Source: Candidatus Omnitrophota bacterium (GTDB lineage Bacteria > Omnitrophota > Gorgyraeia > Zapsychrales > JANLHA01). Taken from it: a DNA stretch of 64,000 nucleotides. Positions 39,465 through 55,400 of the stretch are shown here, one piece after another. Both the position numbers and the translations under genes were made by a program. The DNA is taken from the NCBI GenBank assembly GCA_029560465.1, contig JAKQKX010000069.1, positions 77,021 through 141,020 on the forward strand, written 5' to 3'. The notes beneath the pieces are model-generated. The model searched no databases. It had not been told where the DNA came from and worked only from the letters and a program-made list of their open reading frames with translations. How positions within the stretch are numbered: the first letter of the stretch is position 1; each line of letters starts with the position of its first letter.

Positions 39465-39666
39465 GGGGGTATCCTTTTTGGTGAACAATAAAAGACATTA
39501 TAACAATGAACCTGGATAATGCAAAAAATAATAGAACGCGCGGCCTTTAACGCCGTGTATCCTTTTTTTATAAATATCCCCAGGAGATTAAATTATATGT
39601 GGCTGCTGGACACCCGCCAGGAGAATTATTATAATAATATTCATTATTTATTTTAAAGAGCTTTTC

Positions 39667-41349: not shown

Positions 41350-41360
41350 CGGAGTTTGCC

Positions 41361-42692
41361 ATGGAATATTATTCCAATATCCGGTGGGTTGACGAATATA
41401 TCAAACGGGTTTCCCCGTATATCCACGTGCGGGAGCACGATCAGCTGCTCATCAAGATCCCCAACGAGGCACATAAAATCAACGCTTCGGGAGTGGCCGT
41501 TTTGAAAACACTCCTGGAGGGGAACAGTATTTATACGGTCGTGGACCGGTATCCGGATAAAGAGGGGGTCGCCCGGGACCTGCATTATTTTTTTTGTGAT
41601 ATCATGGCGCTTCTAAAAGGCTGTTATCATGAACGGGACGGCCGTAAAGCGGTCGAGCGGTATCCTTTCAAGCTTCCTTTTAATACCCTGCCGGTTTTAA
41701 GCGAGATCGCGGTCACGTACCGGTGCAACCTGGCCTGCCAGTTTTGCTACGCGGGGTGCGGCTGCCGCAAGGATATCCGGGCGGAAGAGTGCTCTCTCGA
41801 TCAGCTGAAACGCGTGCTGACCGTGATCCGGAAAGAGGCCGAGGTGCCGTCCGTCAGTTTTACCGGTGGGGAACCCACGCTCCGGGCGGATTTGCCGGAT
41901 TTGGTGCGGTTCGCCAAGTCTTTAAGAATGTGGACGAATCTGATCACCAATGGGACCCTAGTCACGCCAAACCTGGCGGCCACGTTAAAAGCCGCAGGGT
42001 TGGATTCTGCCCAGGTCAGCCTGGAGGCCGCGGATGCGCGCCTGCATGACCGGATTGTCCGTTCTCCCGGGGCTTTTGAGAAGACACTGGTTGGGCTGAG
42101 AGCCTTACGGGACGCGGATATCCGGGTGCACACCAACACAACCATTTCCGCCCTGAACAAAGATTATTTGAACGCGATCCTAGCCCTGGTGCGTGACGAG
42201 GGATTTGATAAGTTTTCCATGAATTTGCTTATGCCCGAAGGCTCGGCGGTCGCGCATTTGGAAGAGGTGCTGATCCGTTATTCCGATATAGGCCCGGTTG
42301 TTTTGGCTGTCCAGCGGGAAGCCCTCACGCTGGGGTTGGAGTTCATGTGGTATTCGCCCACACCGTTATGCATTTTTAACCCGATCGTGCATGGCTTGGG
42401 GAACCGGGGATGTGCGGCTTGCGACGGGTTGCTCAGCATCGCCCCGAACGGGGATATCCTGCCGTGTTCGAGTTTTCCCCAGCCCATGGGAAATATCCTG
42501 GATATGCGGGGCCGTTTCCGGGAGTTGTGGGCCGGCCCGGCTTTTCAATATTTTCAGCGCAAGCATTTCGCTCACAAGCAATGCCAGGCGTGTGAAGACC
42601 TGGCCGTCTGTAATGGCGGCTGCCCGCTGTACTGGCGGCAGGTTGGGTATGAGGAGCTTCTGCAACATAAACCGATGGAGGTGGGCGCATGA
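41361..42692 (+). CDS. Radical SAM / SPASM-domain protein (peptide-maturase type)
   Basis: YRCNLACQFCYAG (Cx3Cx2C); C-terminal SPASM-like cysteines (CAACDG...PCSSF...CQACEDLAVCNGGCP). ATG at 41361 with a GGAG Shine-Dalgarno, 11 nt after the repeat-protein stop. The tool ORF start at 41256 is a frame shadow of the repeat. Confidence 0.8.
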   Translation: MEYYSNIRWVDEYIKRVSPYIHVREHDQLLIKIPNEAHKINASGVAVLKTLLEGNSIYTVVDRYPDKEGVARDLHYFFCDIMALLKGCYHERDGRKAVERYPFKLPFNTLPVLSEIAVTYRCNLACQFCYAGCGCRKDIRAEECSLDQLKRVLTVIRKEAEVPSVSFTGGEPTLRADLPDLVRFAKSLRMWTNLITNGTLVTPNLAATLKAAGLDSAQVSLEAADARLHDRIVRSPGAFEKTLVGLRALRDADIRVHTNTTISALNKDYLNAILALVRDEGFDKFSMNLLMPEGSAVAHLEEVLIRYSDIGPVVLAVQREALTLGLEFMWYSPTPLCIFNPIVHGLGNRGCAACDGLLSIAPNGDILPCSSFPQPMGNILDMRGRFRELWAGPAFQYFQRKHFAHKQCQACEDLAVCNGGCPLYWRQVGYEELLQHKPMEVGA

Positions 42693-43651
42693 AGTGGTTG
42701 CCTGATGCGCAAAGACGGGGGGAGATTCATTTTCTGTTTGCCAAGAGGATGCCTTACCATAGCCGGTTGATCCTGATTTTGGCCCTCCTTACTGGCGGCC
42801 TTCTGGTGCAATTGATGATTGAATTCTGGGGGGGGCTGTTTCTCCTCGTGGCGGCCACGGCCCTCTCGCTCATTAAAGGGTATTCCGCCCGTCCGAAGCT
42901 GAGCGGGCCGGAGGAATGGAATCAGGTCACTCCTGATGAATATCAAAAAGTACAGCTGAAGCAGAAACAGTTGAAAAAGTGGGACCAGGATTGTTTTGAT
43001 ATCACCAATCCTTTGGGGTTTTTCTGTGCGATGTTGTGCGCTGGGGTGGGGCTTTTTATCTGGGTCGGCCTGATGGGGGCCGGGCAGGAACGGCTAGCCG
43101 GGTTCTGGGCCTGGGACACGTTTGTCCTTTTCGCCCCGCATTGGGTCACGGGAGTGCGGAGTTATCTTAAAAAAGATCAGCTTATTATTAAGATTAAACT
43201 CCTGGAACAGATGATGCGGTTTTTGTCCTCCCCGAGTGATGTGCAGGTCCTGCCCATGCTGGCGACCCAAGAAACGAATGACGGGAAACGTGTGCCCACC
43301 GACGCCCGGTTGATGTTGAGATTTCTCCCCGCGCCGGCCGAGTGCCTGGGGTTGCAGGTGCAGATTTCCATTAATAACGTGCAGGGCCAGGATTATCCGT
43401 ATTTATATTGTGTCCTGATAGGCAAATCCCGTAAGTTTTTTGACAAAGCCGGCCTTCTTATAAAAGACGCTCCCCGGAATATCACGCTTGAATTAAAAAC
43501 GGCCCAGGATGTGGTTGTGCTTGTGATCAGGCAGAAAACAACCCAGACATCCGGGTATTTTACAAATCAGAAAGCCGCGGAATATGTTTTGAAATCGGCC
43601 CTTGATATAAGCCGGAAAATTTTGGCTGGCCAGTTATCCGGACAGGGTTGA
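42689..43651 (+). CDS. Hypothetical multi-TM membrane protein
   Basis: ATGA overlap with the radical SAM gene; four predicted TM helices in the N-terminal half; no recognisable domain. Confidence 0.45.
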   Translation: MKWLPDAQRRGEIHFLFAKRMPYHSRLILILALLTGGLLVQLMIEFWGGLFLLVAATALSLIKGYSARPKLSGPEEWNQVTPDEYQKVQLKQKQLKKWDQDCFDITNPLGFFCAMLCAGVGLFIWVGLMGAGQERLAGFWAWDTFVLFAPHWVTGVRSYLKKDQLIIKIKLLEQMMRFLSSPSDVQVLPMLATQETNDGKRVPTDARLMLRFLPAPAECLGLQVQISINNVQGQDYPYLYCVLIGKSRKFFDKAGLLIKDAPRNITLELKTAQDVVVLVIRQKTTQTSGYFTNQKAAEYVLKSALDISRKILAGQLSGQG

Positions 43652-43706
43652 GGGCGCTTTCCAAGAATTTCCGGAAGCCCTTCCTTGGGTATACGTCCAA
43701 ATATTC

Positions 43707-45335
43707 ATGAAAACGTTGATTTCCGTTAACAATATCAGTAAGACATTTATCTCCCAGGCGGGGAAACATCCGCACATTAAAGCTCTGGATAATATTTCTT
43801 TGGATATTCGAGAAGGGGAAATTTTGGGGGTTTTGGGCCCGAATGGCGCGGGCAAAACGACATTTTTGAATATCCTCTCCACGTTGCTGTTACCCGACAG
43901 CGGGACGATCACGATGATGGGAAAACAACTGGTCCCCGCGCATTATTCCGAATTGCGTCAGTGTTTTAATATGTGTTCCGGGCACCCCAATTTTCCCTGG
44001 AGTTTGACCCTGGAAGAAAATTTATATTTTTACGGCCGGTTGTATAACCTTAAAGGGAGAATTTTGAAACAACGTGTGGCATCCTTGATTGACATGTTCG
44101 GCTTGGGACAGGTCGCGCGGCTTCGTTTTGACGAACTCTCCAGCGGGACCAAGCAGAAGCTGGCCCTGGCTAAGTGTTTGATCAACGAACCCAAGATTAT
44201 TTTTCTCGATGAGCCGACCGTGGGGTTTGACCCGGATGTGGCGGTTAAAATCCGCCGGCTGATTCTGGATATTTATGAGAAGACGGGTGCGACGATCCTG
44301 CTGACGACGCATTATATGCCGGAAGCGGAAAAAATGTGCCAGCGGATCGCCTTTCTGAAAGAGGGGCGTCTTATCCGGTTGGCAACGCCGGAAGAACTAA
44401 AGACACGGCAGGGCCAAAAGGATTTGGAGTCTGTTTTTATCGATTTGGCGGGCAAGATAGCAGAGACGGGCTTGGGTTCCCCACTACAGGAGGCGGGTGA
44501 TTTATTGAGCTGGCAGGAAAGCCGCCCTGCGCCGCGTTCGTTTGCCCCGGATGTGGCCAGATGGCTGAACGGCTGTTTCGCGTTTACATACCGCAACATG
44601 CTGTATGCGTTGAGGAATTTTTTTGCTTTTATGGAACTGGTGTTCTGGCCGATCGTCAGTTTGATCTCGATTGGGCTCATGGGGGATTTTTTAGAGATGG
44701 AAGAGCGCGCGTTCGCGTTTGTTATAACGGGCGCGATAACCGCGGGAATTTTACAAGTCACGCAGCTGGATGTGGCGTACAGCCTGTTGTATGAAGTGTG
44801 GGCCAAAAGTTTAAAGCACACCCTCCTGACACCGGTGGGGATCAGCGAGCATCTTTTCGGGTCCTGGGTGATCGGCATTGCCAGAGGAGTGATTATTTTT
44901 GTGATTTTGGGTTGCGCCGCCACGGTGTTTTTTGGTTTTGAATTTCCTCCTTTATTGGTGACAGGCGTTTTTCTGTTAGGGATTTTCGGCTCCGCGCTTC
45001 TTTTGGGGACGCTTGTATGTTATTTGCTGCTTTGTTTTGGGCAGAAAGCGGAGATAACCGCCTGGATGTTGGCGTATCTTTTCATGCTGATTTGCGGCAT
45101 CTATTATCCGGTAAGCACGTTGCCGAAGTTTTTTTACTATTGCGCTCAATGCGTCCCGATAACATATTTTTTAGAATATTTCCGGCAAAGTTTCGGGTTT
45201 CAGCCCGTCCTTAACTATGTGCTTTGGAAGGGGTTTGCGTTAATTGTTTTTTATCTCATTGTCGGGCTTTTTTTTATGAAACACGCTTTTATTCAGGCAC
45301 GGAAGAACGGAGTGATTGTCAAATTGTCTGAATAA
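43707..45335 (+). CDS. Fused ABC transporter: ATP-binding domain plus ABC-2-type permease domain
   Basis: Walker A GPNGAGKTT, signature LSSGTKQKLALA, Walker B IIFLDEPT, then six TM helices of an ABC-2-type permease. Confidence 0.8.
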   Translation: MKTLISVNNISKTFISQAGKHPHIKALDNISLDIREGEILGVLGPNGAGKTTFLNILSTLLLPDSGTITMMGKQLVPAHYSELRQCFNMCSGHPNFPWSLTLEENLYFYGRLYNLKGRILKQRVASLIDMFGLGQVARLRFDELSSGTKQKLALAKCLINEPKIIFLDEPTVGFDPDVAVKIRRLILDIYEKTGATILLTTHYMPEAEKMCQRIAFLKEGRLIRLATPEELKTRQGQKDLESVFIDLAGKIAETGLGSPLQEAGDLLSWQESRPAPRSFAPDVARWLNGCFAFTYRNMLYALRNFFAFMELVFWPIVSLISIGLMGDFLEMEERAFAFVITGAITAGILQVTQLDVAYSLLYEVWAKSLKHTLLTPVGISEHLFGSWVIGIARGVIIFVILGCAATVFFGFEFPPLLVTGVFLLGIFGSALLLGTLVCYLLLCFGQKAEITAWMLAYLFMLICGIYYPVSTLPKFFYYCAQCVPITYFLEYFRQSFGFQPVLNYVLWKGFALIVFYLIVGLFFMKHAFIQARKNGVIVKLSE

Positions 45336-45483
45336 AGAGGGGAAACGCTAGAGGCCGGGCCGCTTCTTTAAAAGGCGTCCTGGTTACAGAATACGTTTGG
45401 ATTTATAATCGACACTGATTTTTCTGTCTGTTATAATTGAGCCAGATGTGTTATCCCAGGTCATCAAATTAAGGAGGTGTCCA

Positions 45484-46092
45484 ATGGACGGGGGCCTTAT
45501 GCAGCAGGCAACATCTTTAGAGGCGCTTTTTTGGTTTTGCGCTCTTGCCGGCACGGTTTTTTTTATTATAAGGGTTATTTTTATGGTGATAGGCGGGGCC
45601 CTGGATACCGGTGGAGACGTGGATTTGGGGCCGGATGCGCACATGGATATGGGCCACTCCGGGCATGACGGTACGGTATCAGATACCCATTTCGAGTTTA
45701 TTTCAGTGAATTCCATCACGGCTTTTTTTATGATGTTCGGGTGGATAGGCTTGACGTGTCATAAACAGTTTCTTTTAAACGGAGGGCTTTCTGTTATTAT
45801 CGGATTCCTGGCCGGGGTGGGCTGTATGCTGATAACAGCCTATCTTTTCAAACTTGCCAGGAAACTGGTCAGCCGGGGGAGCGTTTTTTCGGTGGACCAG
45901 GCGATGGGAAAAAAGGGGACCGTTTATCAGCGGATTTCGGCGGACGGCCGGGGAAAAATCACTGTTGAGTTAAATGATAGTACTCGGGAAATTGAGGCGA
46001 TCGCTGAAGATAAACAGGATATTGATTCATTTCAGACCATTGAAGTCGTCCGAGTCGTTGATCAAAGAACCGTGGCGGTTAAAAAAATATAG
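45484..46092 (+). CDS. NfeD-like membrane protein (SPFH-partner family)
   Basis: N-terminal TM helices plus a C-terminal OB-fold-like soluble domain; AAGGAGG Shine-Dalgarno before the ATG at 45484; immediately upstream of a flotillin gene. Confidence 0.5.
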   Translation: MDGGLMQQATSLEALFWFCALAGTVFFIIRVIFMVIGGALDTGGDVDLGPDAHMDMGHSGHDGTVSDTHFEFISVNSITAFFMMFGWIGLTCHKQFLLNGGLSVIIGFLAGVGCMLITAYLFKLARKLVSRGSVFSVDQAMGKKGTVYQRISADGRGKITVELNDSTREIEAIAEDKQDIDSFQTIEVVRVVDQRTVAVKKI

Positions 46093-46104
46093 GAGGAATC
46101 GGCT

Positions 46105-47499
46105 ATGAGTTTACTTGCAATCTCTGTCTTGATTTTCACTTTTTTTCTCTTTGCATTGATTTTATTTCTAGCCAGCTGTTATAAACGATGTCCATCCAAT
46201 AAAATTTTAGCGATTTATGGAAAAGTAGGGGAAGGGAAGTCCGTGACGTGTTTTCATGGCGGCGGTGCCTTTATTTGGCCCTTAATCCAGGATTCAAAAT
46301 TTTTGGACTTAACACCTATGACGATCAGCATTCCGCTTAAAGGAGCCCTATCGTTCCAGAATATCCGGATTAATGTTCCCAGCACCTTTACGATCGCCAT
46401 CGACACATCTTCGGAAGCCATGCATAACGCTGCCGTCCGTCTTCTGGAATTGAACCAGCAGGAAATTGAAAAGATGGCCACGGAAATTATTTTCGGGCAG
46501 TTGAGGCTTACGGTGGCCACGTTGACGATTGAAGATATCAATCAGGACCGGGAAAAATTTTTGCAGGCGATCCGGAACAACATTGAGCCGGAGTTGAGAA
46601 AGATCGGCTTAACTTTGATTAACGTGAACATCACGGACATTGCTGATGAGTCGGGTTATATTGAGAGTATCGGGAAAAAGGCCGCGTCGACCGCGATCAA
46701 TCAGGCCAAGATTGATGTGGCGGAACAGGAGAAAAAAGGGGATGTCGGCGCCGCCGCGGCTCAAAGGGAACGCCGTATTCAGGTCGCGAGTTACAACGCA
46801 GAAGCGGTTGAGGGGGAGAATGTTGCTCAAGCGAACATTGTTAATTATAACGCTGATTTGGCGGAAAAAGCCGCGGACGCGGATCGCCGCGGGCAGGTCG
46901 CCCGGCAGAACGCGATCGCGGAAATCCAGAAAGCGAAAGCGTTGGCGGAAACGAAGCGTTTGGAAGCGGAAGAGATTGTCGTGAAAGAAATTGAAAAACG
47001 GAAGATAGAAATATCGGCCGAAGCGGAAGCCGAGCGGGTTCGTCGGGAGGCCCGGGGGCAGGCGGACGCGATTGTCGCTGTAAAATCCGCCGAAGCGGAA
47101 GGGATTCAGAAAGTCCTTGACGCCAAGGCAGAAGGGTATAACCAGTTGGTCAATTCTTGCGGTGATAACGCGAAAGATGCGGCGACCATGCTTATCGTCG
47201 AGAAGCTGGAAGATATCGTGAAATTGCAGACTGAAGCGATTCAGAAGTTAAAGATCGATAAAATCACCGTTTGGGACAGCGGGAACGCGGAAAAAGGCAG
47301 TTCGACGGCGAATTTTGTGAGCAATATGATTAAATCGTTGCCGGCTTTGCATGATATTGCGGGTATGGCCGGGGTTCAATTGCCGGATTATTTGGGTAAG
47401 ACGACGGACGGGAAGGAAAAGGTCACGCCTCCTTTGGGGAACAGGCCGAAACCGAATATTATAGTGAAAGAGGAAAAGAAGGAGCAGGAAAAGAAATAG
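46105..47499 (+). CDS. Flotillin-like SPFH/band-7 protein
   Basis: N-terminal TM, SPFH domain, long Ala/Glu-rich coiled coil (EA-repeat region) typical of bacterial flotillins (YqiK/FloA-like). Confidence 0.8.
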   Translation: MSLLAISVLIFTFFLFALILFLASCYKRCPSNKILAIYGKVGEGKSVTCFHGGGAFIWPLIQDSKFLDLTPMTISIPLKGALSFQNIRINVPSTFTIAIDTSSEAMHNAAVRLLELNQQEIEKMATEIIFGQLRLTVATLTIEDINQDREKFLQAIRNNIEPELRKIGLTLINVNITDIADESGYIESIGKKAASTAINQAKIDVAEQEKKGDVGAAAAQRERRIQVASYNAEAVEGENVAQANIVNYNADLAEKAADADRRGQVARQNAIAEIQKAKALAETKRLEAEEIVVKEIEKRKIEISAEAEAERVRREARGQADAIVAVKSAEAEGIQKVLDAKAEGYNQLVNSCGDNAKDAATMLIVEKLEDIVKLQTEAIQKLKIDKITVWDSGNAEKGSSTANFVSNMIKSLPALHDIAGMAGVQLPDYLGKTTDGKEKVTPPLGNRPKPNIIVKEEKKEQEKK

Positions 47500-47510
47500 A
47501 ATTTGTCTTT

Positions 47511-47559
47511 AAAAAAGGGGGCAGCGTTTTTATTGAAAAAGCGCTACCCCCTTTTTTTT
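47511..47559. terminator. Bidirectional rho-independent terminator between convergent genes
   Basis: A-tract, GC-rich stem (GGGGGCAGCG...CGCTACCCCC with one mismatch), then T8. Confidence 0.65.
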
Positions 47560-47569
47560 GTTGCCACTT

Positions 47570-49498
47570 TTATTTCCACAGTCGCTCGCTGGCGACTTTA
47601 AGAATGTCCTCCACCATGCGGGCATAGGATATGTCGGCCAATTTTGCCATTTTGGCCAGATGCCCGTCCCAGCACCATCCGGGGTTGGGGTTCACTTCTA
47701 GGAGTTTCGGATTCCCCGCTTTATCCAGTCGCCAGTCAACCCGCGCGTAGTCCCGGCATTCCAGGCGTTCGAAAAGCTTTAAACAACAGGCTTCAATATA
47801 TTTTTCTGCCTCATCCGGGAGATTGGCCGGCACAGACCGGATTTTCCCATAGGGAGATTCGGGTAGCCATTTCGCTTCATACCCGCAAATCCTCGGAAGT
47901 TCTTTGGGGAGATGGGAATAATCTTCTTCAATGATGGGGAGGATTGTGTAGGATTCAGGAGGATTCCCGATGATTCCAACGCTTAAATCCGCGCCTTCCA
48001 GGAATTCCTCGACCAGAATAGGCTTGTCAAAACCGATCTGGTCACGGATCCGCTGAATCGCGTTCACCAAATCTTCGATGTTATAGGCCACGCTTTTTTG
48101 CGTGATCCCAAGGCTGGAATCGCCGAAATTTGGTTTGACTAGGACAGGGAACGGGAAAGACAGGTCAAACACATTGTCTTCCGCTTTAATAAAGAAAGCG
48201 AGCGGAACCATGATCCCCATTTCGTTGGCAATCCCCCTGACCAGAGATTTGTCATAACAGTGGGCCAGACACTGGGGACCCGCCCCGGTATAAGGGATGT
48301 TTAACATCTCCAGAAGGGCAGGGACGTGCAGTTCTTTGCTGGCCATATTGTTGAAGCCTTCGTCACACAGATTGAATATAAAATCAATTTTGGCCCGGTT
48401 TTTTACGAGGTCATTGATTAAACTATCATGGTTATTAAAATACGTGAATTTATACATAGGCAACCGGCTGAGGACAGATTTCATCTGGTCGATGGTGTAG
48501 AAATCATCGTCATCAAACACCGAGGAAGGTTTTAGCGTATCGGTTTTTTGCGGATCCCCTAAAAGCACCGCCACATGCTTCAGGGCGACGCCCTTTTTGG
48601 CGACTGGCGGGGTCCATGCTTTCTTGACGACAGCCGTAACGATGACCCGCTGTTCCATCATGCCGAGGTCCTGGTTCCTTTGCGAATGCGTTTTGATTTC
48701 CTGGGCAAAGCAGATATCTTTAAACCCCGCGTTTTCAAGCAAGTTTGATAATGTCTCTCTGGAATAAAGCCGTTCCGCGTAGAATTGGTCGGCGACCACT
48801 CCTTTTTCCACATGAGAGATGACTTCCCGGCTGATGAGACGCTGTTTGTCTATGGATAAAGACCTTTCCCGGCAGACGAAATGTTTTTTGTCGATCCACT
48901 CCCAGCTCCTGGGGCTGAAATGCTTCTGAAGGTAGTCTCCGTCAGAGACATCAATGAGGATTTTCCCCCAAGGTTTGATGACCCGGAAGATTTCTTTTAA
49001 GACCAGAAGGTCGTCATTAATGGTTTCAAAATAGCCGAAACTGTTTCCCAGAAGAGTCACGCAGTCAAATTTGCATGCCGGGTAAGGGAGTTTTCTGGCG
49101 TCGCCTTCCTTGAATTTGATGTTTAATCCTTCCCGTTTGGTCTGCAGACGTGCCCGTTGGATGAGATAATGAGATCGGTCAAGGCCGTAGACGTTTTTAA
49201 AACCTTGCCGAGCGAGTTCAAGGCAATGCCGCCCTTGCCCGCAGCACAAATCCAGGATCAGGTGGTCTTTCTGCAGCTGGATAGAGGAGAGAAAAAGCTG
49301 TATTTCATGTCGGGTGATGGAAGGGTCGTCCACGACATCAGCATCGGTTTTTAAATAATTGGCGTTGAAGATGCGGCACCACCAGTCCGATGATACATGG
49401 GCCTCCAGGTCATCAATAGGGCCGAACGTCCTTTTTTCCGGTTGTACCCGTGGTTTAATTTTTTGTTGATCGCAGGGGCTTTCTACTGTGTCTCTCAT
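47570..49498 (-). CDS. Fusion of a class I SAM-dependent methyltransferase (N-terminal) with a D-Ala-D-Ala-ligase-like ATP-grasp domain (C-terminal)
   Basis: Methyltransferase motif I LDLCCGQGRH and a post-I acidic residue. ATP-grasp blocks PVLVKPNFGDSS, ILVEEFLEGADLSVGIIGN and RVDWRLDKAGNPKLLEVNPNPG. Confidence 0.7.
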   Translation of the reverse strand: MRDTVESPCDQQKIKPRVQPEKRTFGPIDDLEAHVSSDWWCRIFNANYLKTDADVVDDPSITRHEIQLFLSSIQLQKDHLILDLCCGQGRHCLELARQGFKNVYGLDRSHYLIQRARLQTKREGLNIKFKEGDARKLPYPACKFDCVTLLGNSFGYFETINDDLLVLKEIFRVIKPWGKILIDVSDGDYLQKHFSPRSWEWIDKKHFVCRERSLSIDKQRLISREVISHVEKGVVADQFYAERLYSRETLSNLLENAGFKDICFAQEIKTHSQRNQDLGMMEQRVIVTAVVKKAWTPPVAKKGVALKHVAVLLGDPQKTDTLKPSSVFDDDDFYTIDQMKSVLSRLPMYKFTYFNNHDSLINDLVKNRAKIDFIFNLCDEGFNNMASKELHVPALLEMLNIPYTGAGPQCLAHCYDKSLVRGIANEMGIMVPLAFFIKAEDNVFDLSFPFPVLVKPNFGDSSLGITQKSVAYNIEDLVNAIQRIRDQIGFDKPILVEEFLEGADLSVGIIGNPPESYTILPIIEEDYSHLPKELPRICGYEAKWLPESPYGKIRSVPANLPDEAEKYIEACCLKLFERLECRDYARVDWRLDKAGNPKLLEVNPNPGWCWDGHLAKMAKLADISYARMVEDILKVASERLWK

Positions 49499-49826
49499 GG
49501 GTTCCTTTTTAGAAATGGGTTGGATAAATGGTTTAAAATAAGAAAATGGATAATAAAAAAAGCATTCAGGTTCCAGCCAACATCTTTTGGGGGAGATTGT
49601 TAACCAAACCTTAAATGCTTTATTATGCTTTCTTCCCGTTGCAGATCGACAGAGAGAACCTCATAACCTGCGGTTGGAAAAGGAGTCTATCCAACATGGA
49701 ACACGGGATTTCGGATCCTTGTATATTTTCCATCAATCTTAACAACGTTTAGCATTTTGTCAAGTAAAACAAAAGAGGGGAAGGAAATTAGTTGAGGGCG
49801 GGGATACCTGATTTCAGCGTTGTGGC

Positions 49827-50123
49827 TTGACAATGGCGGGGGTGGAATATTATAATCGCGAACAGTTCCATATAAAACATTTTTCAAGGAGGCATTTCTT
49901 GGCAAGAATTAATGAATTGATTGAGTGGGATGATTGTGGCTCCAGCTACAGTCTTTATGTCAGACATTTTTCCGATGATGAAGGCCAGGTAGGGGTTAAG
50001 ATGATTTTTGAAGATGTGACCCGTGAAAAAGTTACGGAAATAATGATCCCGGCCAGAAAATTCCCTTCGTTTTTAAGGGCGGTCAATGTCGGGCCCCGCA
50101 ATCCTTTCGGCAGTATTCTTTAG
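49827..50123 (+). CDS. Small hypothetical protein
   Basis: 98-aa ORF in an otherwise non-coding gap; no recognisable domain. Confidence 0.3.
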   Translation: MTMAGVEYYNREQFHIKHFSRRHFLARINELIEWDDCGSSYSLYVRHFSDDEGQVGVKMIFEDVTREKVTEIMIPARKFPSFLRAVNVGPRNPFGSIL

Positions 50124-50270
50124 GGCGTGGATTGGCTGATGTGTTTGGTTTTTTGTGCCTGATGGGGATTGTAAAAGGGCAAAAAATCTTGACAGGGTTC
50201 TTTCCGGATAGTAGCATATTCCCTTAAGGGAATATGGTCAAGAGGCTTTAATGGGCAGGGGAGGCTTGCT

Positions 50271-50645
50271 TTGGGCATCAAGAAGGTCCGGCAAATACTG
50301 AAATCGTTCGCAGACGATACGCGGCTGCGAATTATTAATTTATTAAACCAGCAGGAAGAACTGAGCGTGAGCGAACTGTGCCTGATTCTGGACGTTAACC
50401 AGTCCAGCCTTTCTAAGCACTTGGGCCGGCTAAGGTTAACAGGGATTGTGAATGACCGGCGAGAGGGGATGAGTGTTTATTATTCTCTTGTTAAACCTAA
50501 AGAAAAAGCCCACAGGGAGCTTTTGAACGCGATCACATCTGGCCTTGCCGAGTCACAAGCCTTTATCCGTGACTCCCTGAAATTAAAAGAAATTTATGGC
50601 CATAAGAAATCAAAGCCAAAGCGTGTTGGACGTGTTGGTGATTAA
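50271..50645 (+). CDS. ArsR/SmtB family transcriptional regulator
   Basis: RLRIINLL...LSVSELCLILDVNQSSLSKHLGRLRLTGIV wHTH; TTG start uncertain. Confidence 0.65.
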   Translation: MGIKKVRQILKSFADDTRLRIINLLNQQEELSVSELCLILDVNQSSLSKHLGRLRLTGIVNDRREGMSVYYSLVKPKEKAHRELLNAITSGLAESQAFIRDSLKLKEIYGHKKSKPKRVGRVGD

Positions 50646-50788
50646 ACATCGGAATATCGGGGTGCCCCAGCACGGGTTACTAAGGAAGGGGGTGGACAAG
50701 GATATATTAACCAATCGTTTTAGATAAGATTTCAAATGAAGAATATTTATTAAGGAGCTGTTGCGCTCCACAATGAGCGGAGGAAGAA

Positions 50789-51151
50789 ATGAAAAAAGTA
50801 TTCATGACCCTTGGAGCGGCCCTTCTTACAGGGGTCGTAATGATTAACACGAGCGCGGTCTACGCTCAGGAAGACGATGTGGAGGAATATTCCTGGGGAA
50901 CCGTCGCGGAGATCTCCGGTGACCAGATTGTTATTGTTGAATATAATTATGAAACGGAAGAAGAACAGAATGAAACATACCTGATCGCCCCGGATGTCGA
51001 GTTGTTGGGAATCAGCGCGTTAAGCGAGATCAAGGTCGGAGATGCCGTCGAATTCCGGTATGCGGTGCAGGGCGGTAAGAAGGTTGTCTTGGCGATCGGT
51101 TTGGATAAGTCCGTTATGGAAGAAAGCCCTGCCGACGTCTTTAGCGAATAA
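50789..51151 (+). CDS. Small secreted acidic hypothetical protein
   Basis: Signal peptide MKKVFMTLGAALLTGVVMINTSAVYA; GGAGG Shine-Dalgarno. Confidence 0.45.
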   Translation: MKKVFMTLGAALLTGVVMINTSAVYAQEDDVEEYSWGTVAEISGDQIVIVEYNYETEEEQNETYLIAPDVELLGISALSEIKVGDAVEFRYAVQGGKKVVLAIGLDKSVMEESPADVFSE

Positions 51152-51190
51152 TCTATATAAGGATTTTTTAAGATTAGTGTTGAGGAGATT

Positions 51191-51532
51191 ATGAACTTAG
51201 AACCTAATAAACTCTATATAGGAAATTTGGGTTACGACGTGACAGATGATGACCTGACCGTGTTCCTGGAGCATAACGGAATTAATGTCCAGGCGTGCCA
51301 GGTCGTTATTGATAAAAATTTGGACCGGTCCAAAGGGTTCGCATTCGTAGAAGTGGCGTCTGCGGACGACCTTCGGAATGCGATCGAGAACGTGAACGGC
51401 AAAGAATTAAATGGCCGGGCCGTAAAAATTAATCAGGCCAGAGAGCGAAGGGAAAAAGAGGATAGCTCGTCCAAGCCGCATAGAAAAGGAAAACGCGGTC
51501 GGTTCCGAGACGAGTATGATGAGAATTATTAA
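51191..51532 (+). CDS. RNA-binding protein with RRM domain
   Basis: RNP2 LYIGNL and RNP1 KGFAFVEV; basic C-terminal tail. Confidence 0.75.
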   Translation: MNLEPNKLYIGNLGYDVTDDDLTVFLEHNGINVQACQVVIDKNLDRSKGFAFVEVASADDLRNAIENVNGKELNGRAVKINQARERREKEDSSSKPHRKGKRGRFRDEYDENY

Positions 51533-51680
51533 GCCCGCGTGATGCCTTTTGTGTGGGATATCAGGAGAAAAAGAGAGATATGAGCCGAAAGACGTTCGTA
51601 TCTCTTTTTTTATCCTTTTCGTTTCTGTCCGAGCCTTTTGTAGACCAGGGGATTGCGCTTTGTGGAGGAGGTGAGATAGG

Positions 51681-52265
51681 ATGGGAAAAATCTTTATGGC
51701 TTTTATTCCTATTTGCGTTGCCGTGGACGCTTTGGGAGTTTTGCCGATTTATATTTCTTTAACCCAGGGGATGGATAAGAAAATTCAAAATAAGATTATC
51801 CGTCAGTCCATCCTGACTGCTTCTTTGTTAGCGTTTGGATTTATTTTTTTGGGTAAATTTATTTTCCGGATTTTGGGGATTACGATCGCTGATTTTATGA
51901 TCGCTGGAGGACTGATCCTGTTTTGTATCGCTTTATTAGATATTTTGAAACCCGGGAAACAAAGGCGTTATCCTCCCGATGATGTGGGGGCGGTTCCGAT
52001 CGGGACCCCGTTGATTACCGGGCCGGCTGTCCTGACGACATCGCTGGTTATGATGGATCAGTATGGATGGCTGGCCACTGTGTTCGCGGTTCTGGCCAAC
52101 GTCATTCTGGCGGGATGCGCTTTTTACAGCGCGGATTTTTTAGTCCAGCGATTGGGATTAACCGGCATCAGGGCCTTTTCCAAAGTCATGGCTTTATTGT
52201 TAGCCGCCATCGCGGTTGAGATGATCCGCAAGGGCGTCCTGCAAGTTTTTCCATGTAATGTATAA
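51681..52265 (+). CDS. MarC family (UPF0056) integral membrane protein
   Basis: N-terminal FIPICVAVDALGVLPIYISLT block and six TM helices. Confidence 0.65.
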   Translation: MGKIFMAFIPICVAVDALGVLPIYISLTQGMDKKIQNKIIRQSILTASLLAFGFIFLGKFIFRILGITIADFMIAGGLILFCIALLDILKPGKQRRYPPDDVGAVPIGTPLITGPAVLTTSLVMMDQYGWLATVFAVLANVILAGCAFYSADFLVQRLGLTGIRAFSKVMALLLAAIAVEMIRKGVLQVFPCNV

Positions 52266-52426
52266 CCTGTTTCCTGGTCCACCCCTTTGCTCCCTGAAGC
52301 CGTTGGACACGAAAAATGTCAAGGAGGGCTATCACGGAACGGGCCGGTTCAAATAGTGCTTCCCCGCGTTCCGTTTCAAGATTATAATTAGAAAAACTCA
52401 AAGCTAATCATACGGTATCTTTCCGC

Positions 52427-55400
52427 ATGCCCATGCCCGATTCCTTCTTCAATACGCTGAAAGTTTTATTCCAATCTTTTAGGGAACCCCCTATCAAACA
52501 TATCTGTTCTCTTGAAGCCGCTTACCAGAAAACGTTGGGCCCTTTTAATCCTGACACTTTAAGTGTCCTGCACACGCGCAGACGGGCGGAAAGGGCGTAC
52601 AAACGTTTGCGCTCTTATATTGTGTCTCTTCAACGCCATGCCCCGGCGGGGGCCACGCAAGGGCAGCGTATCCTCCGGGCGTATTTGGAGCGTATTGACG
52701 CGATCCATGGGGACGTGCGCCGCTGGGGCGCGTTGTCCTGTGACCTGCGGTGGCCCGAGGAGGGCCGTCTCCCTGGGGTTAAAACAAAGGACCGGATTGC
52801 TTTCCGGGAGCGCCTGGCTTCGGAGGCCAGGGAATTATGGGATGAGCTTCGGGCGCGGGTGCAAGGGGGCACATGGCCGCGACCCCGGGAACGGGACATT
52901 TATCTTCTTAAGCAACGGTTGGGACGGATGGAGGTGAATGACGGGGCTTGGCGGGGCGTGTTCCAGCAATTGTGCCTTTTGGTGGACCGGCATGTGCGTT
53001 TTGTTTTCATGGACGCACGATACGCCATGCGGCACCGTTTCCAAATCACCCTGGCGCAGGAATCCTTGTTGTCAGACCCCGGAGATTTCTTTGTGAAATC
53101 TGGGAAGGCGGGGGCAGGTGGGGCGGAGGGGAAGAAGCGGCTTATGCTTTTGGAAGATTGGGTGCACGGGTATTATCCCCCTTGGGCGCATATTCAGGCG
53201 GTGTACCAGCGCTGCGTGAGTCCGGTGATTAAATTTTTAGAGCGTTGCGAAGGGAAGCGGGTACGCGTTATTATGGCCGTTGGATTCCTTCTGGTCTTGG
53301 TGTTTGGCTCCGGGGTTTTTGTCCTCCGGCAGACCGACGCGGATAATCGTATGTGGCGGGTCATGGTTTTTGAAATCAAGAAATTAATCCGTTCCGATCC
53401 GGAATCCCTGGCGGATCAGGAAAAGAAGAAGTACTTTCGCGACCAGATCGCCCGGATTGATGAAATGTATTCTCCAGATCAAATCCGCGCCCATATCGAG
53501 GAGTTTTACGGCAGGGAACTCTATCGTACGCAGGAAGGGTTCCTTTTTTTCTGCAGGAATATTCTTAAAGGATTTTTTATGCTCTTGGCGGAATGGAAGG
53601 CCGATGACCAGCTGAAACAGGACGTCGTGGACGCGGCTTTTTATCTGGATGGACGTATCGCGGGGGCCGTTGCGCATATCATCGCTCTTTATGAACAGCC
53701 CATGATCCGTGAAGGGGAGCTCCGGGGGGAGATCCTGCGGATGCGCCGGGCCTTTGTCTCCTACAATGTTTTTCCGTTTACGTTTATTATCCTCGAAGAT
53801 GATGTCCCGTATCTTTTTCTGTTCTCCGAGACGGTGATAAAAAAGTACGTGCTGGCCAAAGAGGCGTTTGAAAGAATGCATCTGGATGGGAATTTGTATT
53901 CCGGCGCCGCTCTCTGGCCGGGGGTGGCTTATATTGTGGAAGGGGAAGAATACCCTTTTACGGACCGGTCCGGGTATTTTGAAGGAGAATTTGCCGTCAT
54001 ATTCCGGCGTTTTGCCCCAGAGGTGTTATGGACGGTTTATCATGAGGTCGGGCACGTGATCGATCATTTGCGTTTTCTCTTTGAAAGGAAACCCTACCCG
54101 GCTAACGTTGAATTGCATTCCATGTTGGCGCCTGTCATGTGGGCGGAAGACCGGAAGGCTTATGTGGCCCGGCGCTTGGCAGACGAAGCGGAAAAAGGGG
54201 ATGAGTTTGATAATTATTCCCAGGCGGCGAAAGGGCTTTTAAACGGGATGTTCATTTATCTGTCCGAACAAAATCCGCGCATTCGGGGCCCGTTGATTTC
54301 CAACCGGTTTGAGAAGGAACGCATCCGGCGGATAGTTGAGCTCGTCGGAGACATGGACCCGGAAGCATTGCATGAGGCGGCGTACGCATTTTATCGGCAG
54401 CCGCAGAAGTATTTGTCAACGGCGGAACCCGGCCGTTATGTGGCGTACCTTCAGAATTATCAGGAGGTCATCGCGGGAACGGATCATAAGGTCGCCCAGA
54501 GGGGTTTTATCCTGGGGGGAGGAGGTTGGGTCGGCCCGCGCAGTGGACCGCGGCTCATTTTTGACGGGGCCGACGACAATAGCCTTGGGAATGATTTTCA
54601 TTTATGGCTTTTCCTGAGAAACGCTGTTAGTCTTATTTTCTACCCGTCCCAAAACTTGCCTCAAGCCACGAGCGCGGAGTCGATCGTGGCATCGGTTATG
54701 GTTTTTGTTCTCTTTAACCTGACGGCTTTGATGATTCATGCCTTGGCCGCCCCTTACCGGAAGAAGATGTTTTCCGGATACGCGTTGGAGAGACGGGTTG
54801 ACCGTATCTATGACCATAATCCTTGGTCCCGCGGAATCAGTTACGGCGCGGAACTGCGGGAAAGGAAATTGTTGAAAAAAATTTTTTCGCCCAGAGGGCC
54901 ACTTGATCCGCAGATTAAAAAAGACATTCTTGCGTTTAAGTCAACCGCGCATGAACGGGAACGCGTGGTTTTTGATATTTGCCTTTTCCTGGCGCCGTTG
55001 AATCCGCGTCAGTCCGCCATCATAAATAAGGCGCATGACCTTTTGTTTTTTCTCCCTTTTTTAGGCCCGTATTTAGGCCGGTCACCCTGGCTCTGGCCGG
55101 TGCAGAGGCGGTTCCATCAGAGGGAACGTTATAATGAGCGGATCGAAATTTTGCTTTCAGGGATCGGCAAGGAACAATTGACTGTGGAGATGTTGCCTCT
55201 TGCCCTTCGCGGTTTGTTGCGTGAATTCGAGCTCCCCGTAAGTGCGGCTGCGGGACGGGGCTTTTTAAATGTTGCCGATATGTTTATTCGGCTTCGGTCC
55301 ATGGTGTTGGAGTCTCTTTTGAGGGAATCTCCGGTGACGCACATGAATTTTGATTTTATCCGGGATAAAATGCCAGAGAACCATGAGACCAGCGTTGAGT

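What the first reader, a model, noticed from the sequence alone, without database searches (positions are those of the whole stretch)
47570..49498. Methyltransferase / ATP-grasp (Ddl-like) fusion protein
A single 642-aa ORF combines a class I SAM methyltransferase with a D-Ala-D-Ala-ligase-like ATP-grasp ligase. This is a bifunctional enzyme that could ligate and N- or O-methylate a small peptide or amino-acid conjugate, reminiscent of non-ribosomal small-peptide pathways. It converges on the flotillin gene and shares a bidirectional terminator with it.
Basis: partly seen in the sequence, partly recalled or inferred. Interest (0 to 1): 0.5.

Follow-up and report, generated by a model that had tools for sequence, protein, structure and literature searches.

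The report
Conserved methyltransferase–ligase fusion enzyme, product unknown
This gene really does encode one protein joining a methyl-adding enzyme to an ATP-driven amide-bond-forming enzyme; it is not a cell-wall D-Ala-D-Ala ligase but belongs to a very conserved, uncharacterised family found in bacteria, archaea, early fungi and a choanoflagellate, whose product nobody has identified.

Summary
Window 47570-49498 (-) is one intact 642-aa ORF under strong purifying selection (dN/dS 0.024). It has an N-terminal class I SAM methyltransferase and a C-terminal three-domain Ddl-fold ATP-grasp ligase. It converges on a flotillin gene across a strong bidirectional terminator hairpin.

It is not a D-Ala-D-Ala ligase. 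The ATP, Mg2+ and catalytic residues are kept, but the residues that specify D-Ala1 and D-Ala2 are replaced. Scores fall far below curated Ddl cut-offs. A canonical Ddl sits next to the fusion in some genomes. The methyltransferase half is closest to NmbA (bacillithiol Cys-N-methyltransferase, 35% identity) and folds like small-molecule and peptide amine N-methyltransferases.

The fusion occurs in at least 579 species genomes across about 30 phyla, plus zoosporic fungi and Monosiga. Identity sits on a flat 62-72% plateau even between archaea and bacteria. The gene is usually solitary. Enriched neighbours are an AstE/AspA-type amidohydrolase with the same conservation signature, CorA transporters and, for stand-alone ligase forms in DPANN archaea, diphthamide genes.

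Best model, inferred and not shown: a self-contained ligate-and-N-methylate pathway to an unknown small dipeptide-like metabolite. I found no functional study.

The parts
47570..49498 (-). Complete 642-aa ORF (stop codon 47570-47572): methyltransferase / Ddl-fold ATP-grasp fusion protein
   Evidence: The identical protein P0001 is on independent contigs. dN/dS is 0.024 against the L007 orthologue.
48623..49429 (-). Class I SAM-dependent methyltransferase domain (aa ~24-292). It comprises a conserved N-terminal lid segment (aa 24-70), a Rossmann core with motif I LDLCCGQGRH (aa 82-91), and a four-strand cap (aa ~187-245) with invariant SWEW, CRERSLS and YAERLY motifs.
   Evidence: Pfam. Best PDB sequence hit is NmbA 9RI2 (E 1.4e-25, 35% identity over 180 aa including the cap). 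Domain model has pLDDT 80, and its fold neighbours are CcbJ, CypM, NmbA, TylM1 and GSMT. Invariant columns are listed.
47573..48586 (-). Ddl-fold ATP-grasp ligase domain (aa ~305-642). ATP, Mg2+ and catalytic residues are retained: K417, K455, S461, E497, K543, R586, D588, E601, N603. Family-specific motifs are LLGDP (312), an acidic loop FDDDDF (328-333), LCDEG (377), YEAKW (540) and NPNPGWCWDGH (603-613).
   Evidence: Invariant columns are listed.
47511..47557 (.). Bidirectional intrinsic-terminator-like hairpin shared with the convergent flotillin gene (A-run, 21-bp stem, T-run)
   Evidence: Sequence. Fold is -27.1 kcal/mol, z -4.28.
49736..49763 (-). Candidate sigma-70-like promoter (TTGACA, 16 nt, TG-TAAGAT). 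It would give a ~235-nt leader. Consensus match only.
   Evidence: No Rfam family lies in the leader.
49503..49507 (-). Shine-Dalgarno-like AAGGA, 4-5 nt upstream of the ATG
   Evidence: Sequence read directly.

Best explanation
The ORF encodes an active, self-contained two-step enzyme. Inferred mechanism: the C-terminal ATP-grasp domain uses ATP and Mg2+ to turn the carboxylate of one small substrate into an acyl-phosphate. It then couples that to the amine of a second small substrate that carries a free alpha-carboxylate, giving an amide (a dipeptide-like or N-acyl-amino-acid-like compound) that is not D-Ala-D-Ala. The N-terminal SAM-dependent methyltransferase then methylates a free amine of that compound or of one precursor, most likely the alpha-amine of the acyl-donor residue, as NmbA does on the cysteinyl amine of bacillithiol. 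Because the gene is normally solitary, both substrates should be common metabolites, and the product is a small N-methylated pseudo-dipeptide of unknown identity and role. A co-distributed AstE/AspA-type zinc amidohydrolase probably hydrolyses it again. What is shown: the architecture, intact catalytic residues, loss of Ddl specificity residues, the family's distribution and conservation, and the neighbour enrichments. What is inferred: the substrates, N- rather than O-methylation, the order of steps, the hydrolase partnership and the physiological role.
For: Against E. coli DdlB, K97, K144, S150, E180, K215, R255, D257, E270, N272 and G276 are all conserved. Y216->W544, S281->G612 and L282->H613 are fixed family-wide, and the N-terminal (D-Ala1) domain is too diverged to align. 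The Ddl omega-loop motif YEAK is retained, which suggests a closed, small-substrate active site. The full Ddl fold is present. The MT domain's best sequence relative is NmbA, well above the next hit (93 vs 52 bits), with the alignment running through the substrate cap. NmbA is an experimentally shown N-methyltransferase of the Cys alpha-amine of bacillithiol (PMC12719100). Fold neighbours are mostly amine N-methyltransferases of small molecules and peptides: CcbJ, CypM, NmbA, TylM1, CalS10, GSMT. The gene is solitary: no neighbour is conserved across phyla in 163 loci, the median upstream gap is 269 nt, and neighbour strands are random. A split MT + ATP-grasp gene pair stays adjacent and co-directional (L089). 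An AstE/AspA-type amidohydrolase (PF24827) lies within 7-214 nt in 5 distinct loci from at least 4 phyla, on either side. That hydrolase family shows the same 58-64% cross-phylum identity plateau, including CPR and Asgard. Its closest solved relatives are N-acyl-amino-acid deacylases such as N-acetyl-DAB deacetylase, and it retains the HxxE/H zinc site and the LNR-x-FPG carboxylate-binding motif. Related ATP-grasp domains are fused to peptidases elsewhere (Monosiga S9; L037 M20), which fits a synthetase/hydrolase logic. Strong purifying selection: dN/dS 0.024.
Against: There is no biochemical datum for any family member, and I found no functional paper. Identity to NmbA in the substrate cap is only 26%. 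NmbA ranks 11th by fold, with rmsd ~9 A, so N-methylation of an alpha-amine is a homology guess; some fold neighbours are C-methyltransferases. Only about 3% of loci have the hydrolase next door, and genome-wide co-occurrence was not measured. The very high conservation (about 66% between archaea and bacteria) is unusual for a small-molecule enzyme and could point to a macromolecular substrate. DPANN stand-alone ligases lie next to diphthamide genes, and Planctomycete copies sit in the ffh-rpsP-trmD operon. This model does not explain either observation. CorA adjacency is also unexplained.
Confidence: 0.55

Rival explanations
1. The enzyme modifies a macromolecule of the translation apparatus rather than a free metabolite. 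It would act on an amino-acid-like stub with a free alpha-amine and alpha-carboxylate, for example a 3-amino-3-carboxypropyl group as in diphthamide on EF-2 or acp3U in RNA. It would N-methylate the amine and amidate or extend the carboxylate, which is the same pair of chemistries as Dph5 plus Dph6.
For: Stand-alone ATP-grasp orthologues that keep all family motifs lie 30 nt upstream of a conserved 102-108-aa Dph1/2 N-terminal-domain ORF (PF01866, 58 bits vs cut-off 33) in two DPANN genomes that are 70% identical. In an independent lineage (52% identical) the orthologue is divergent from a full-length Dph6 (PF01902, 222 bits). In Planctomycetes the fusion, or its split form, follows trmD in the ffh-rpsP-trmD operon, 3 nt after trmD in L004. 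The very high conservation across domains is typical of enzymes that recognise conserved macromolecules. Related ATP-grasp domains are fused to LRR repeats (Lokiarchaeia) and to a prolyl oligopeptidase (Monosiga).
Against: Bacteria lack EF-2 and diphthamide, yet their copies are about 66% identical to archaeal ones and keep every motif. None of 163 fusion loci has a Dph2, Dph5 or Dph6 neighbour. Only 5 DPANN loci were sampled, and 2 show no such neighbour. The trmD synteny is confined essentially to one phylum. The Ddl-type omega-loop lid and the NPMT-type cap suggest enclosed small-substrate pockets.
Confidence: 0.15
2. It makes a low-molecular-weight thiol: the ligase joins cysteine to a partner and the NmbA-like domain N-methylates the cysteinyl amine, giving a bacillithiol/glutathione-type redox buffer for lineages with no known thiol. 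This is a specific sub-case of the best explanation.
For: NmbA, the closest characterised relative of the MT domain, methylates exactly the Cys alpha-amine of a thiol. From my own knowledge, not tested here: the glutathione-synthetase half of GshF is a Ddl-like ATP-grasp. Many host lineages (Thermotogota, Atribacterota, Asgard, DPANN) have no assigned LMW thiol.
Against: Nothing indicates cysteine as a substrate. Cap identity to NmbA is 26%. There is no linkage to cysteine or sulfur genes in 163 loci. GshF and glutathione synthetase structures are not among the top sequence or fold hits.
Confidence: 0.08
3. The methyltransferase O-methylates a carboxylate (a cryptic or protecting methyl ester) so that the ATP-grasp activates the right carboxyl of a dicarboxylic substrate, or it methyl-esterifies the product. 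It does not N-methylate.
For: Class I MTs of this Pfam group include O-methyltransferases (a D-glucose O-MT appears among PDB hits). Cryptic methyl-ester chemistry that directs ATP-dependent steps is documented in other pathways (PMC11427300). The AstE/AspA neighbour suggests dicarboxylic amino-acid moieties.
Against: The closest sequence relative and most fold neighbours are N-methyltransferases. DPANN organisms keep the ligase alone without the MT, so methylation is not a prerequisite for ligation.
Confidence: 0.1
4. It is simply a D-alanine-D-alanine (or D-Ala-D-Lac/Ser) ligase for cell-wall synthesis that carries an accessory domain, as most database names say.
For: Database names. Ddl is the best fold and sequence match for the C-terminal half.
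Against: NCBIfam Ddl scores are 121 bits against cut-offs of 243-246. The D-Ala specificity residues Y216, S281 and L282 are replaced, and the D-Ala1 domain cannot be aligned. The family is present in archaea without murein, DPANN, fungi and a choanoflagellate. A canonical Ddl with the GGxSxEHEVS motif is encoded right beside the fusion in L031 and L043.
Confidence: 0.02

Closest known systems
D-alanine--D-alanine ligase (DdlB/DdlA; VanA-type ligases), ATP-grasp superfamily
   Same: Same three-domain fold (TM ~0.8). Same ATP-, Mg2+- and transition-state residues, and the same omega-loop YEAK motif. It therefore presumably uses the same acyl-phosphate mechanism of amide formation between two small substrates.
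   Different: The substrate-specifying residues are replaced (Y216W, S281G, L282H). The N-terminal substrate-1 domain has diverged, with an extra acidic FDDDDF loop and an LCDEG motif. Scores are below family cut-offs. It is fused to a methyltransferase, present in organisms without peptidoglycan, and co-resident with a true Ddl.
NmbA, bacillithiol N-methyltransferase (PDB 9RI2; Hammerstad et al. 2025, PMC12719100)
   Same: Closest characterised sequence relative of the MT domain (35% over 180 aa, E 1e-25), with the alignment extending through the four-strand cap. Both are class I natural-product-type MTs. NmbA methylates the free alpha-amine of an amino-acyl amide, which is the kind of group a Ddl-type ligation product would present.
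   Different: NmbA is a stand-alone 266-aa protein tied to the BshA/B/C pathway, which archaea and eukaryotes lack. Cap identity is only 26%, and the structural match to the NmbA crystal cap is poor (rmsd ~9 A). The fusion has an extra conserved N-terminal segment (aa 24-70).
Bifunctional ligase/modifier enzymes that make small peptide-like solutes or thiols in one polypeptide: Ngg (GNAT + ATP-grasp, N-acetylglutaminylglutamine amide), GshF (gamma-Glu-Cys ligase + Ddl-like ATP-grasp), glutathionylspermidine synthetase/amidase. Recalled from my own knowledge, not tested here.
   Same: The logic is the same: one polypeptide combines an ATP-grasp amide ligase with a second tailoring or opposing activity, acts on common metabolites and needs no gene cluster.
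   Different: None of them pairs the ligase with a SAM methyltransferase. None shows comparable cross-domain sequence conservation. No sequence relationship beyond the ATP-grasp superfamily was seen.
Diphthamide pathway steps Dph5 (N-methylation) and Dph6 (ATP-dependent amidation)
   Same: The same pair of chemistries acting on an alpha-amino-acid stub. DPANN stand-alone ligase orthologues neighbour Dph1/2-N-domain and Dph6 genes.
   Different: The folds are unrelated: Dph5 is a tetrapyrrole-methylase-type enzyme and Dph6 a PP-loop ATPase (PMC3541065). Diphthamide is absent from bacteria, where most fusion genes occur.

Membership tests
D-alanine--D-alanine ligase (EC 6.3.2.4) | Three-domain ATP-grasp fold of Ddl | tested here: met
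   Foldseek top 50 hits are all Ddl or VanA, with TM 0.67-0.82 normalised to target.
D-alanine--D-alanine ligase (EC 6.3.2.4) | ATP/Mg2+/catalytic residues (DdlB K97, K144, E180, K215, R255, D257, E270, N272) | tested here: met
   All are conserved in the query and in 15 of 15 sampled family members. The profile alignment agrees.
D-alanine--D-alanine ligase (EC 6.3.2.4) | D-Ala1/D-Ala2 specificity residues (E15-S150-Y216 triad; S281, L282) | tested here: not met
   Y216->W544, S281->G612 and L282->H613 are fixed in the family. The E15 region cannot be aligned by hhalign, and only S150 is kept.
D-alanine--D-alanine ligase (EC 6.3.2.4) | Score above curated family cut-off | tested here: not met
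   NF002378 scores 121.5 bits against a cut-off of 243. TIGR01205 scores 119.5 against 245.65.
D-alanine--D-alanine ligase (EC 6.3.2.4) | Occurs as the peptidoglycan-precursor ligase of murein-containing organisms | tested here: not met
   The family is present in Asgard, DPANN, methanogen and halobacterial MAGs, zoosporic fungi and Monosiga. A canonical Ddl is adjacent in L031 and L043.
NmbA-class N-methyltransferases (bacillithiol N-methylase) | Class I Rossmann SAM-MT with closest sequence similarity to NmbA, including the cap | tested here: met
   9RI2 is the best hit at E 1.4e-25 (93 bits; next hit 52 bits). Alignment covers aa 75-260 against NmbA 55-234 at 35% identity.
NmbA-class N-methyltransferases (bacillithiol N-methylase) | The distinctive NmbA cap architecture ('molecular basket') | tested here: inconclusive
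   The domain model (pLDDT 80) matches 9RI2 only at rank 11, TM 0.51/0.65, rmsd 8.9 A. The NmbA paper itself reports that AlphaFold models disagree with the crystal cap.
NmbA-class N-methyltransferases (bacillithiol N-methylase) | Co-occurrence with BshA, BshB, BshC (bacillithiol pathway) | not testable with these tools
   Whole genomes cannot be profiled here. The paper reports no BSH pathway in archaea or eukaryotes, yet both carry the fusion, so membership is unlikely.
Diphthamide biosynthesis system | Acts on EF-2 of archaea and eukaryotes; genes co-distributed with Dph2/Dph5 | tested here: not met
   Most carriers are bacteria. No Dph gene lies near any of 163 fusion loci. Only DPANN stand-alone ligases show adjacency.
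Mobile/defence or phage-borne gene | Match to defence-system models, or presence on plasmids or phages | tested here: not met
   PADLOC gives only a generic MT-domain hit. There is no full-length match in 72,556 plasmids or 50,697 phage records.

The most novel reading that the evidence does not exclude
The fusion, with its co-distributed AstE/AspA-type hydrolase, would define a previously unrecognised one-gene pathway. It would be exchanged between bacteria, archaea and early-branching opisthokonts, and would make and turn over an unknown N-methylated dipeptide-like metabolite, possibly tied to divalent-cation homeostasis given the CorA and MgtC neighbours. The bolder variant is that it installs a diphthamide-like methylated, amidated amino-acid stub on a universally conserved component of the translation machinery.
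Probability: 0.4. Interest if true: 0.8.

Novelty: new variant of a known kind. Interest (0 to 1): 0.6.

Why it matters
Both domains belong to well-known superfamilies. The combination, however, forms a very large family with no assigned product: at least 579 species-level genomes, 710 clusters at 50% identity with E<1e-30, about 30 prokaryotic phyla, zoosporic fungi and a choanoflagellate. Its sequence is conserved more tightly across the archaea/bacteria divide (about 66%) than most housekeeping enzymes. Databases mislabel it as 'D-alanine--D-alanine ligase', which creates false peptidoglycan signals in archaea, CPR/DPANN and fungi. Identifying the product would add a new widespread metabolite or modification to the biochemistry of anaerobic, subsurface and Asgard lineages and early fungi. 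It would also explain why a single gene has been exchanged so often across domains. The enzyme is solitary and soluble, so the question can be tested directly by expression plus metabolomics.

Tried and rejected
1. Riboswitch or leader RNA as a ligand clue. Rfam at a permissive E-value on window 45000-53000 gave only spurious hairpin hits on the terminator. Gathering-threshold scans of 14 loci from diverse phyla gave nothing.

2. Conserved operon partners. All-vs-all clustering of neighbour ORFs in 86 and then 163 loci found no partner conserved across phyla. The asd/thrB/hom genes near Atribacterota copies are convergent lineage synteny.

3. Defence, phage or plasmid origin. All rejected. The rhizobial plasmid ATP-grasp hits are distant (about 31%) and their context was uninformative.

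4. The metagenome scan meant to collect more stand-alone ligase loci returned 73 fusions and 7 mostly truncated forms. The diphthamide association therefore could not be extended.

5. The adjacent second methyltransferase in three archaeal loci (L006, L025, L027) is only 25-28% identical to the fusion's MT. Its relevance is unknown.

6. The AFDB50 fold library was unavailable. The Iyer et al. 2009 amidoligase survey (PMC3268129) is not held.

7. My first dN/dS calculation was wrong because of a one-codon indel. I redid it with a codon-aware alignment.

8. Literature searches with nine term sets found no functional characterisation. The only mention found is a list entry in a B. dendrobatidis HGT survey: 'D-alanine-D-alanine ligase' with SAM-methyltransferase GO activity, of bacterial origin (PMC5005798).
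Full report
OBSERVATION. The window holds a single ATG-initiated ORF at 47570..49498 on the minus strand, 642 aa. An AAGGA ribosome-binding motif precedes it. Pfam places class I SAM-methyltransferase models (Methyltransf_25/11/31/23) at aa ~75-262 and Dala_Dala_lig_C at aa 448-633. NCBIfam Ddl models align across aa ~339-639, but at 121 bits against cut-offs of about 245. PDB sequence hits fall into the same two halves. The convergent upstream-strand neighbour at 46105..47499 is a Band_7/SPFH flotillin-type protein. Between the two stop codons lies a perfect terminator-like hairpin at 47511-47557, with an A-run on one side and a T-run on the other (-27.1 kcal/mol, z = -4.3).

The fusion is not an assembly or frameshift artefact. 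The identical protein occurs on independent contigs. A 95%-identical orthologue in a Planctomycetales MAG (L007) gives dS 0.93, dN 0.022 and dN/dS 0.024. The same continuous architecture is found in essentially all related loci.

THE LIGASE HALF. An AlphaFold model (pLDDT 76) of the C-terminal half superposes on complete Ddl and VanA structures, with TM about 0.8 normalised to the target. I aligned it with E. coli DdlB by MAFFT and by profile-profile comparison. The ATP-binding, Mg2+-binding and transition-state residues (K97, K144, S150, E180, K215, R255, D257, E270, N272, G276) are conserved in the query and in all sampled relatives. The residues that define the D-Ala pockets are replaced family-wide: Y216->W544, S281->G612, L282->H613. 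The N-terminal domain that holds the D-Ala1 site is too diverged to align. That domain instead carries invariant acidic motifs: LLGDP, an FDDDDF loop and LCDEG. The Ddl omega-loop core YEAK is retained. I infer an active acyl-phosphate-forming amide ligase with a closed, small-substrate active site and a specificity different from Ddl. In two Atribacterota loci, a canonical Ddl with the GGRSGEHEVS motif is encoded right next to the fusion. This confirms that the fusion is not the housekeeping enzyme.

THE METHYLTRANSFERASE HALF. The best solved relative by sequence is 9RI2, at 93 bits and E 1e-25 against 52 bits for the next hit. The alignment runs through the substrate-binding cap, with 35% identity overall and 26% in the cap. 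9RI2 is NmbA of Chlorobaculum tepidum. It was shown biochemically to methylate the alpha-amino nitrogen of the cysteine moiety of bacillithiol (PMC12719100). A separate model of aa 1-300 (pLDDT 80, pTM 0.73) has as fold neighbours mainly amine N-methyltransferases of small molecules or peptide N-termini: CcbJ, CypM, NmbA, TylM1, CalS10 and GSMT. A few indole C-methyltransferases also appear. NmbA itself ranks only 11th with a poor rmsd, so membership in the NmbA class in the strict structural sense is unresolved. N-methylation of a free amine is the most likely chemistry, but this rests on homology.

DISTRIBUTION AND EVOLUTION. The word-indexed search found more than 5,700 homologues. The best 120 are all full-length fusions 65-72% identical to the query, and they come from Thermotoga, Synergistota, Nitrospirota, WOR-3, Atribacterota, Planctomycetota, Chloroflexota, Actinomycetota and Asgard archaea. 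The best 80 span about 30 phyla, including Jord- and Odinarchaeota, Halobacteria, Nitrosotalea, Methanococcoides, Methanomethylovorans, CPR groups and Chlamydiae, all at 62-69% identity. Mean pairwise identity between archaeal and bacterial copies (66%) is about the same as within phyla (66-69%), and Asgard copies have bacteria as nearest neighbours. The tree is therefore star-like and scrambled by transfer, under very strong constraint.

The exhaustive search of 50%-identity cluster representatives found 710 clusters below 1e-30. These include more divergent fusions (35-53%), stand-alone ligases, stand-alone methyltransferases and long multi-domain proteins. Look-ups show that the long ones are eukaryotic fusions from zoosporic fungi (Gonapodya, Synchytrium, Polyrhizophydium, Coelomomyces, Quaeritorhiza, Olpidium, Blastocladiella, Paraphysoderma) and from Monosiga brevicollis. 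They retain the family's signature motifs. In Monosiga, the fusion (MONBRDRAFT_25176) and a related ATP-grasp fused to a prolyl-oligopeptidase (25175) have consecutive locus tags on the same 1.3-Mb scaffold. A Lokiarchaeial protein fuses the ligase to LRR repeats. The only literature mention I found is a table entry in a Batrachochytrium HGT survey (PMC5005798). The gene is not on plasmids or phages and does not match defence systems.

GENOMIC CONTEXT. In the window the gene is alone on its strand. It has a promoter-like site about 235 nt upstream and no Rfam element. Across 163 loci no neighbour is conserved across phyla. The median upstream gap is 269 nt and neighbour orientation is random. 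A split version keeps the MT and ligase genes adjacent and co-directional (L089). Four recurrent associations stand out.

(a) An AstE/AspA-type zinc amidohydrolase (PF24827) lies within 7-214 nt in five distinct loci from at least four phyla, on either side of the fusion. By a rough estimate, about 0.1 such adjacencies would be expected by chance. The hydrolase family has the same flat 58-64% identity across Desulfobacterota, Planctomycetota, CPR, Spirochaetota, Hydrogenedentota and Asgard archaea. Its nearest solved relatives are N-acyl-amino-acid deacylases such as N-acetyl-diaminobutyrate deacetylase, with the zinc and carboxylate-binding motifs intact.

(b) CorA transporters lie on the same strand within 33-420 nt in about 11 loci from at least four phyla, in both orders.

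(c) In Planctomycetes the gene follows trmD in the ffh-rpsP-trmD operon. This is synteny confined to that lineage.

(d) Stand-alone ligase orthologues in DPANN archaea retain all ligase motifs. In three of five loci, representing two independent lineages, they sit beside diphthamide genes: a conserved Dph1/2 N-terminal-domain ORF or a full Dph6.

INTERPRETATION. The simplest model that fits the anatomy is a self-contained ligate-then-N-methylate enzyme. It would make a small dipeptide-like or N-acyl-amino-acid-like metabolite from common precursors, and the co-distributed AstE/AspA-type hydrolase would act as its degradative partner. The peptidase fusions of related ligases (Monosiga S9, L037 M20) echo that synthetase/hydrolase logic. 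I give this general model 0.55. Specific sub-hypotheses are individually weak: a cysteinyl thiol as for NmbA, a basic substrate bound by the acidic pocket, or a link to Mg2+ homeostasis.

The main rival (0.15) is modification of an amino-acid-like stub on the translation machinery. The DPANN diphthamide neighbours, the trmD operon context and the extreme conservation suggest it. Its weaknesses are the absence of diphthamide in bacteria and of any Dph linkage among fusion loci. O-methylation (0.10) and a true Ddl function (0.02) are less likely.

NOVELTY AND VERDICT. The domains and the reaction types are familiar, and the protein family is already in sequence databases under generic or wrong names. 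It is therefore a new variant of a known kind, not a new kind. It is nonetheless a worthwhile target: a solitary, soluble, very conserved enzyme spanning three domains of life, with a candidate hydrolase partner and no known product. Interest 0.6.

Noticed in passing
window 37812-45335: A possible peptide-maturation (RiPP-like) cluster lies upstream of the flotillin pair. It contains a B12-binding radical-SAM enzyme (37812-39488, -), a 560-aa protein with no Pfam match (39667-41349), a radical-SAM/SPASM enzyme (41256-42692), a 320-aa protein with no Pfam match (42689-43651) and a fused ABC ATPase/ABC-2 permease (43707-45335). A 45-aa ORF was called between the first two genes in the identical contig L001.
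   Followed up: partly
window 45448-47499: An NfeD-like membrane protein (no Pfam hit) is followed directly by a 464-aa Band_7/SPFH flotillin-type protein with a long Ala/Glu-rich coiled-coil tail. This is the classic NfeD-flotillin pair. It ends at the shared terminator hairpin.
   Followed up: partly
window 51681-52265; also L007, L025, L051, L054, L063, L067: A MarC-family (UPF0056) membrane protein lies within 0.1-5 kb of the fusion gene in six independent loci, including the window itself. This is mildly more than chance would give, but orientation and distance vary. An MgtC-family protein is divergent from the fusion in L025 and is also present in L008.
   Followed up: partly
window 52427-56008: A 1193-aa ORF has only a weak C-terminal DUF58 match. 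ORFs of 331, 443 and 404 aa follow it. I did not examine it further.
   Followed up: no
L092 2066-2374 and L094 6077-6403: Two DPANN genomes encode a conserved (71% identical) stand-alone 102-108-aa protein. It corresponds to only the first ~60 positions of the Dph1/Dph2 radical-SAM family model and includes one cluster cysteine motif (CFGACD). It lies immediately downstream of the stand-alone ATP-grasp. It could be a split Dph2, a remnant or a new small partner protein.
   Followed up: partly
L037 11574-13736: A 720-aa protein 1.6 kb downstream of the fusion joins a different Ddl-like ATP-grasp (32% identical to the fusion's) to a peptidase M20 domain. This is another ligase-hydrolase fusion of unknown function.
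   Followed up: no
L006 10010-10804, L025 4856-5650, L027 2492-3280: Three archaeal loci (a Wukongarchaeota MAG and two MAGs labelled Halobacteria) carry the same ~264-aa class I methyltransferase directly next to the fusion. It is only 25-28% identical to the fusion's own MT domain. It might add further methyl groups, or it might be unrelated.
   Followed up: partly
window 49499-50270: The 770-bp region upstream of the fusion gene is 81% identical to that of the L007 relative. It contains a 98-aa ORF (49827-50123, +) with no Pfam match and several promoter-like sites on both strands. An ArsR-family regulator follows at 50271-50645.
   Followed up: partly
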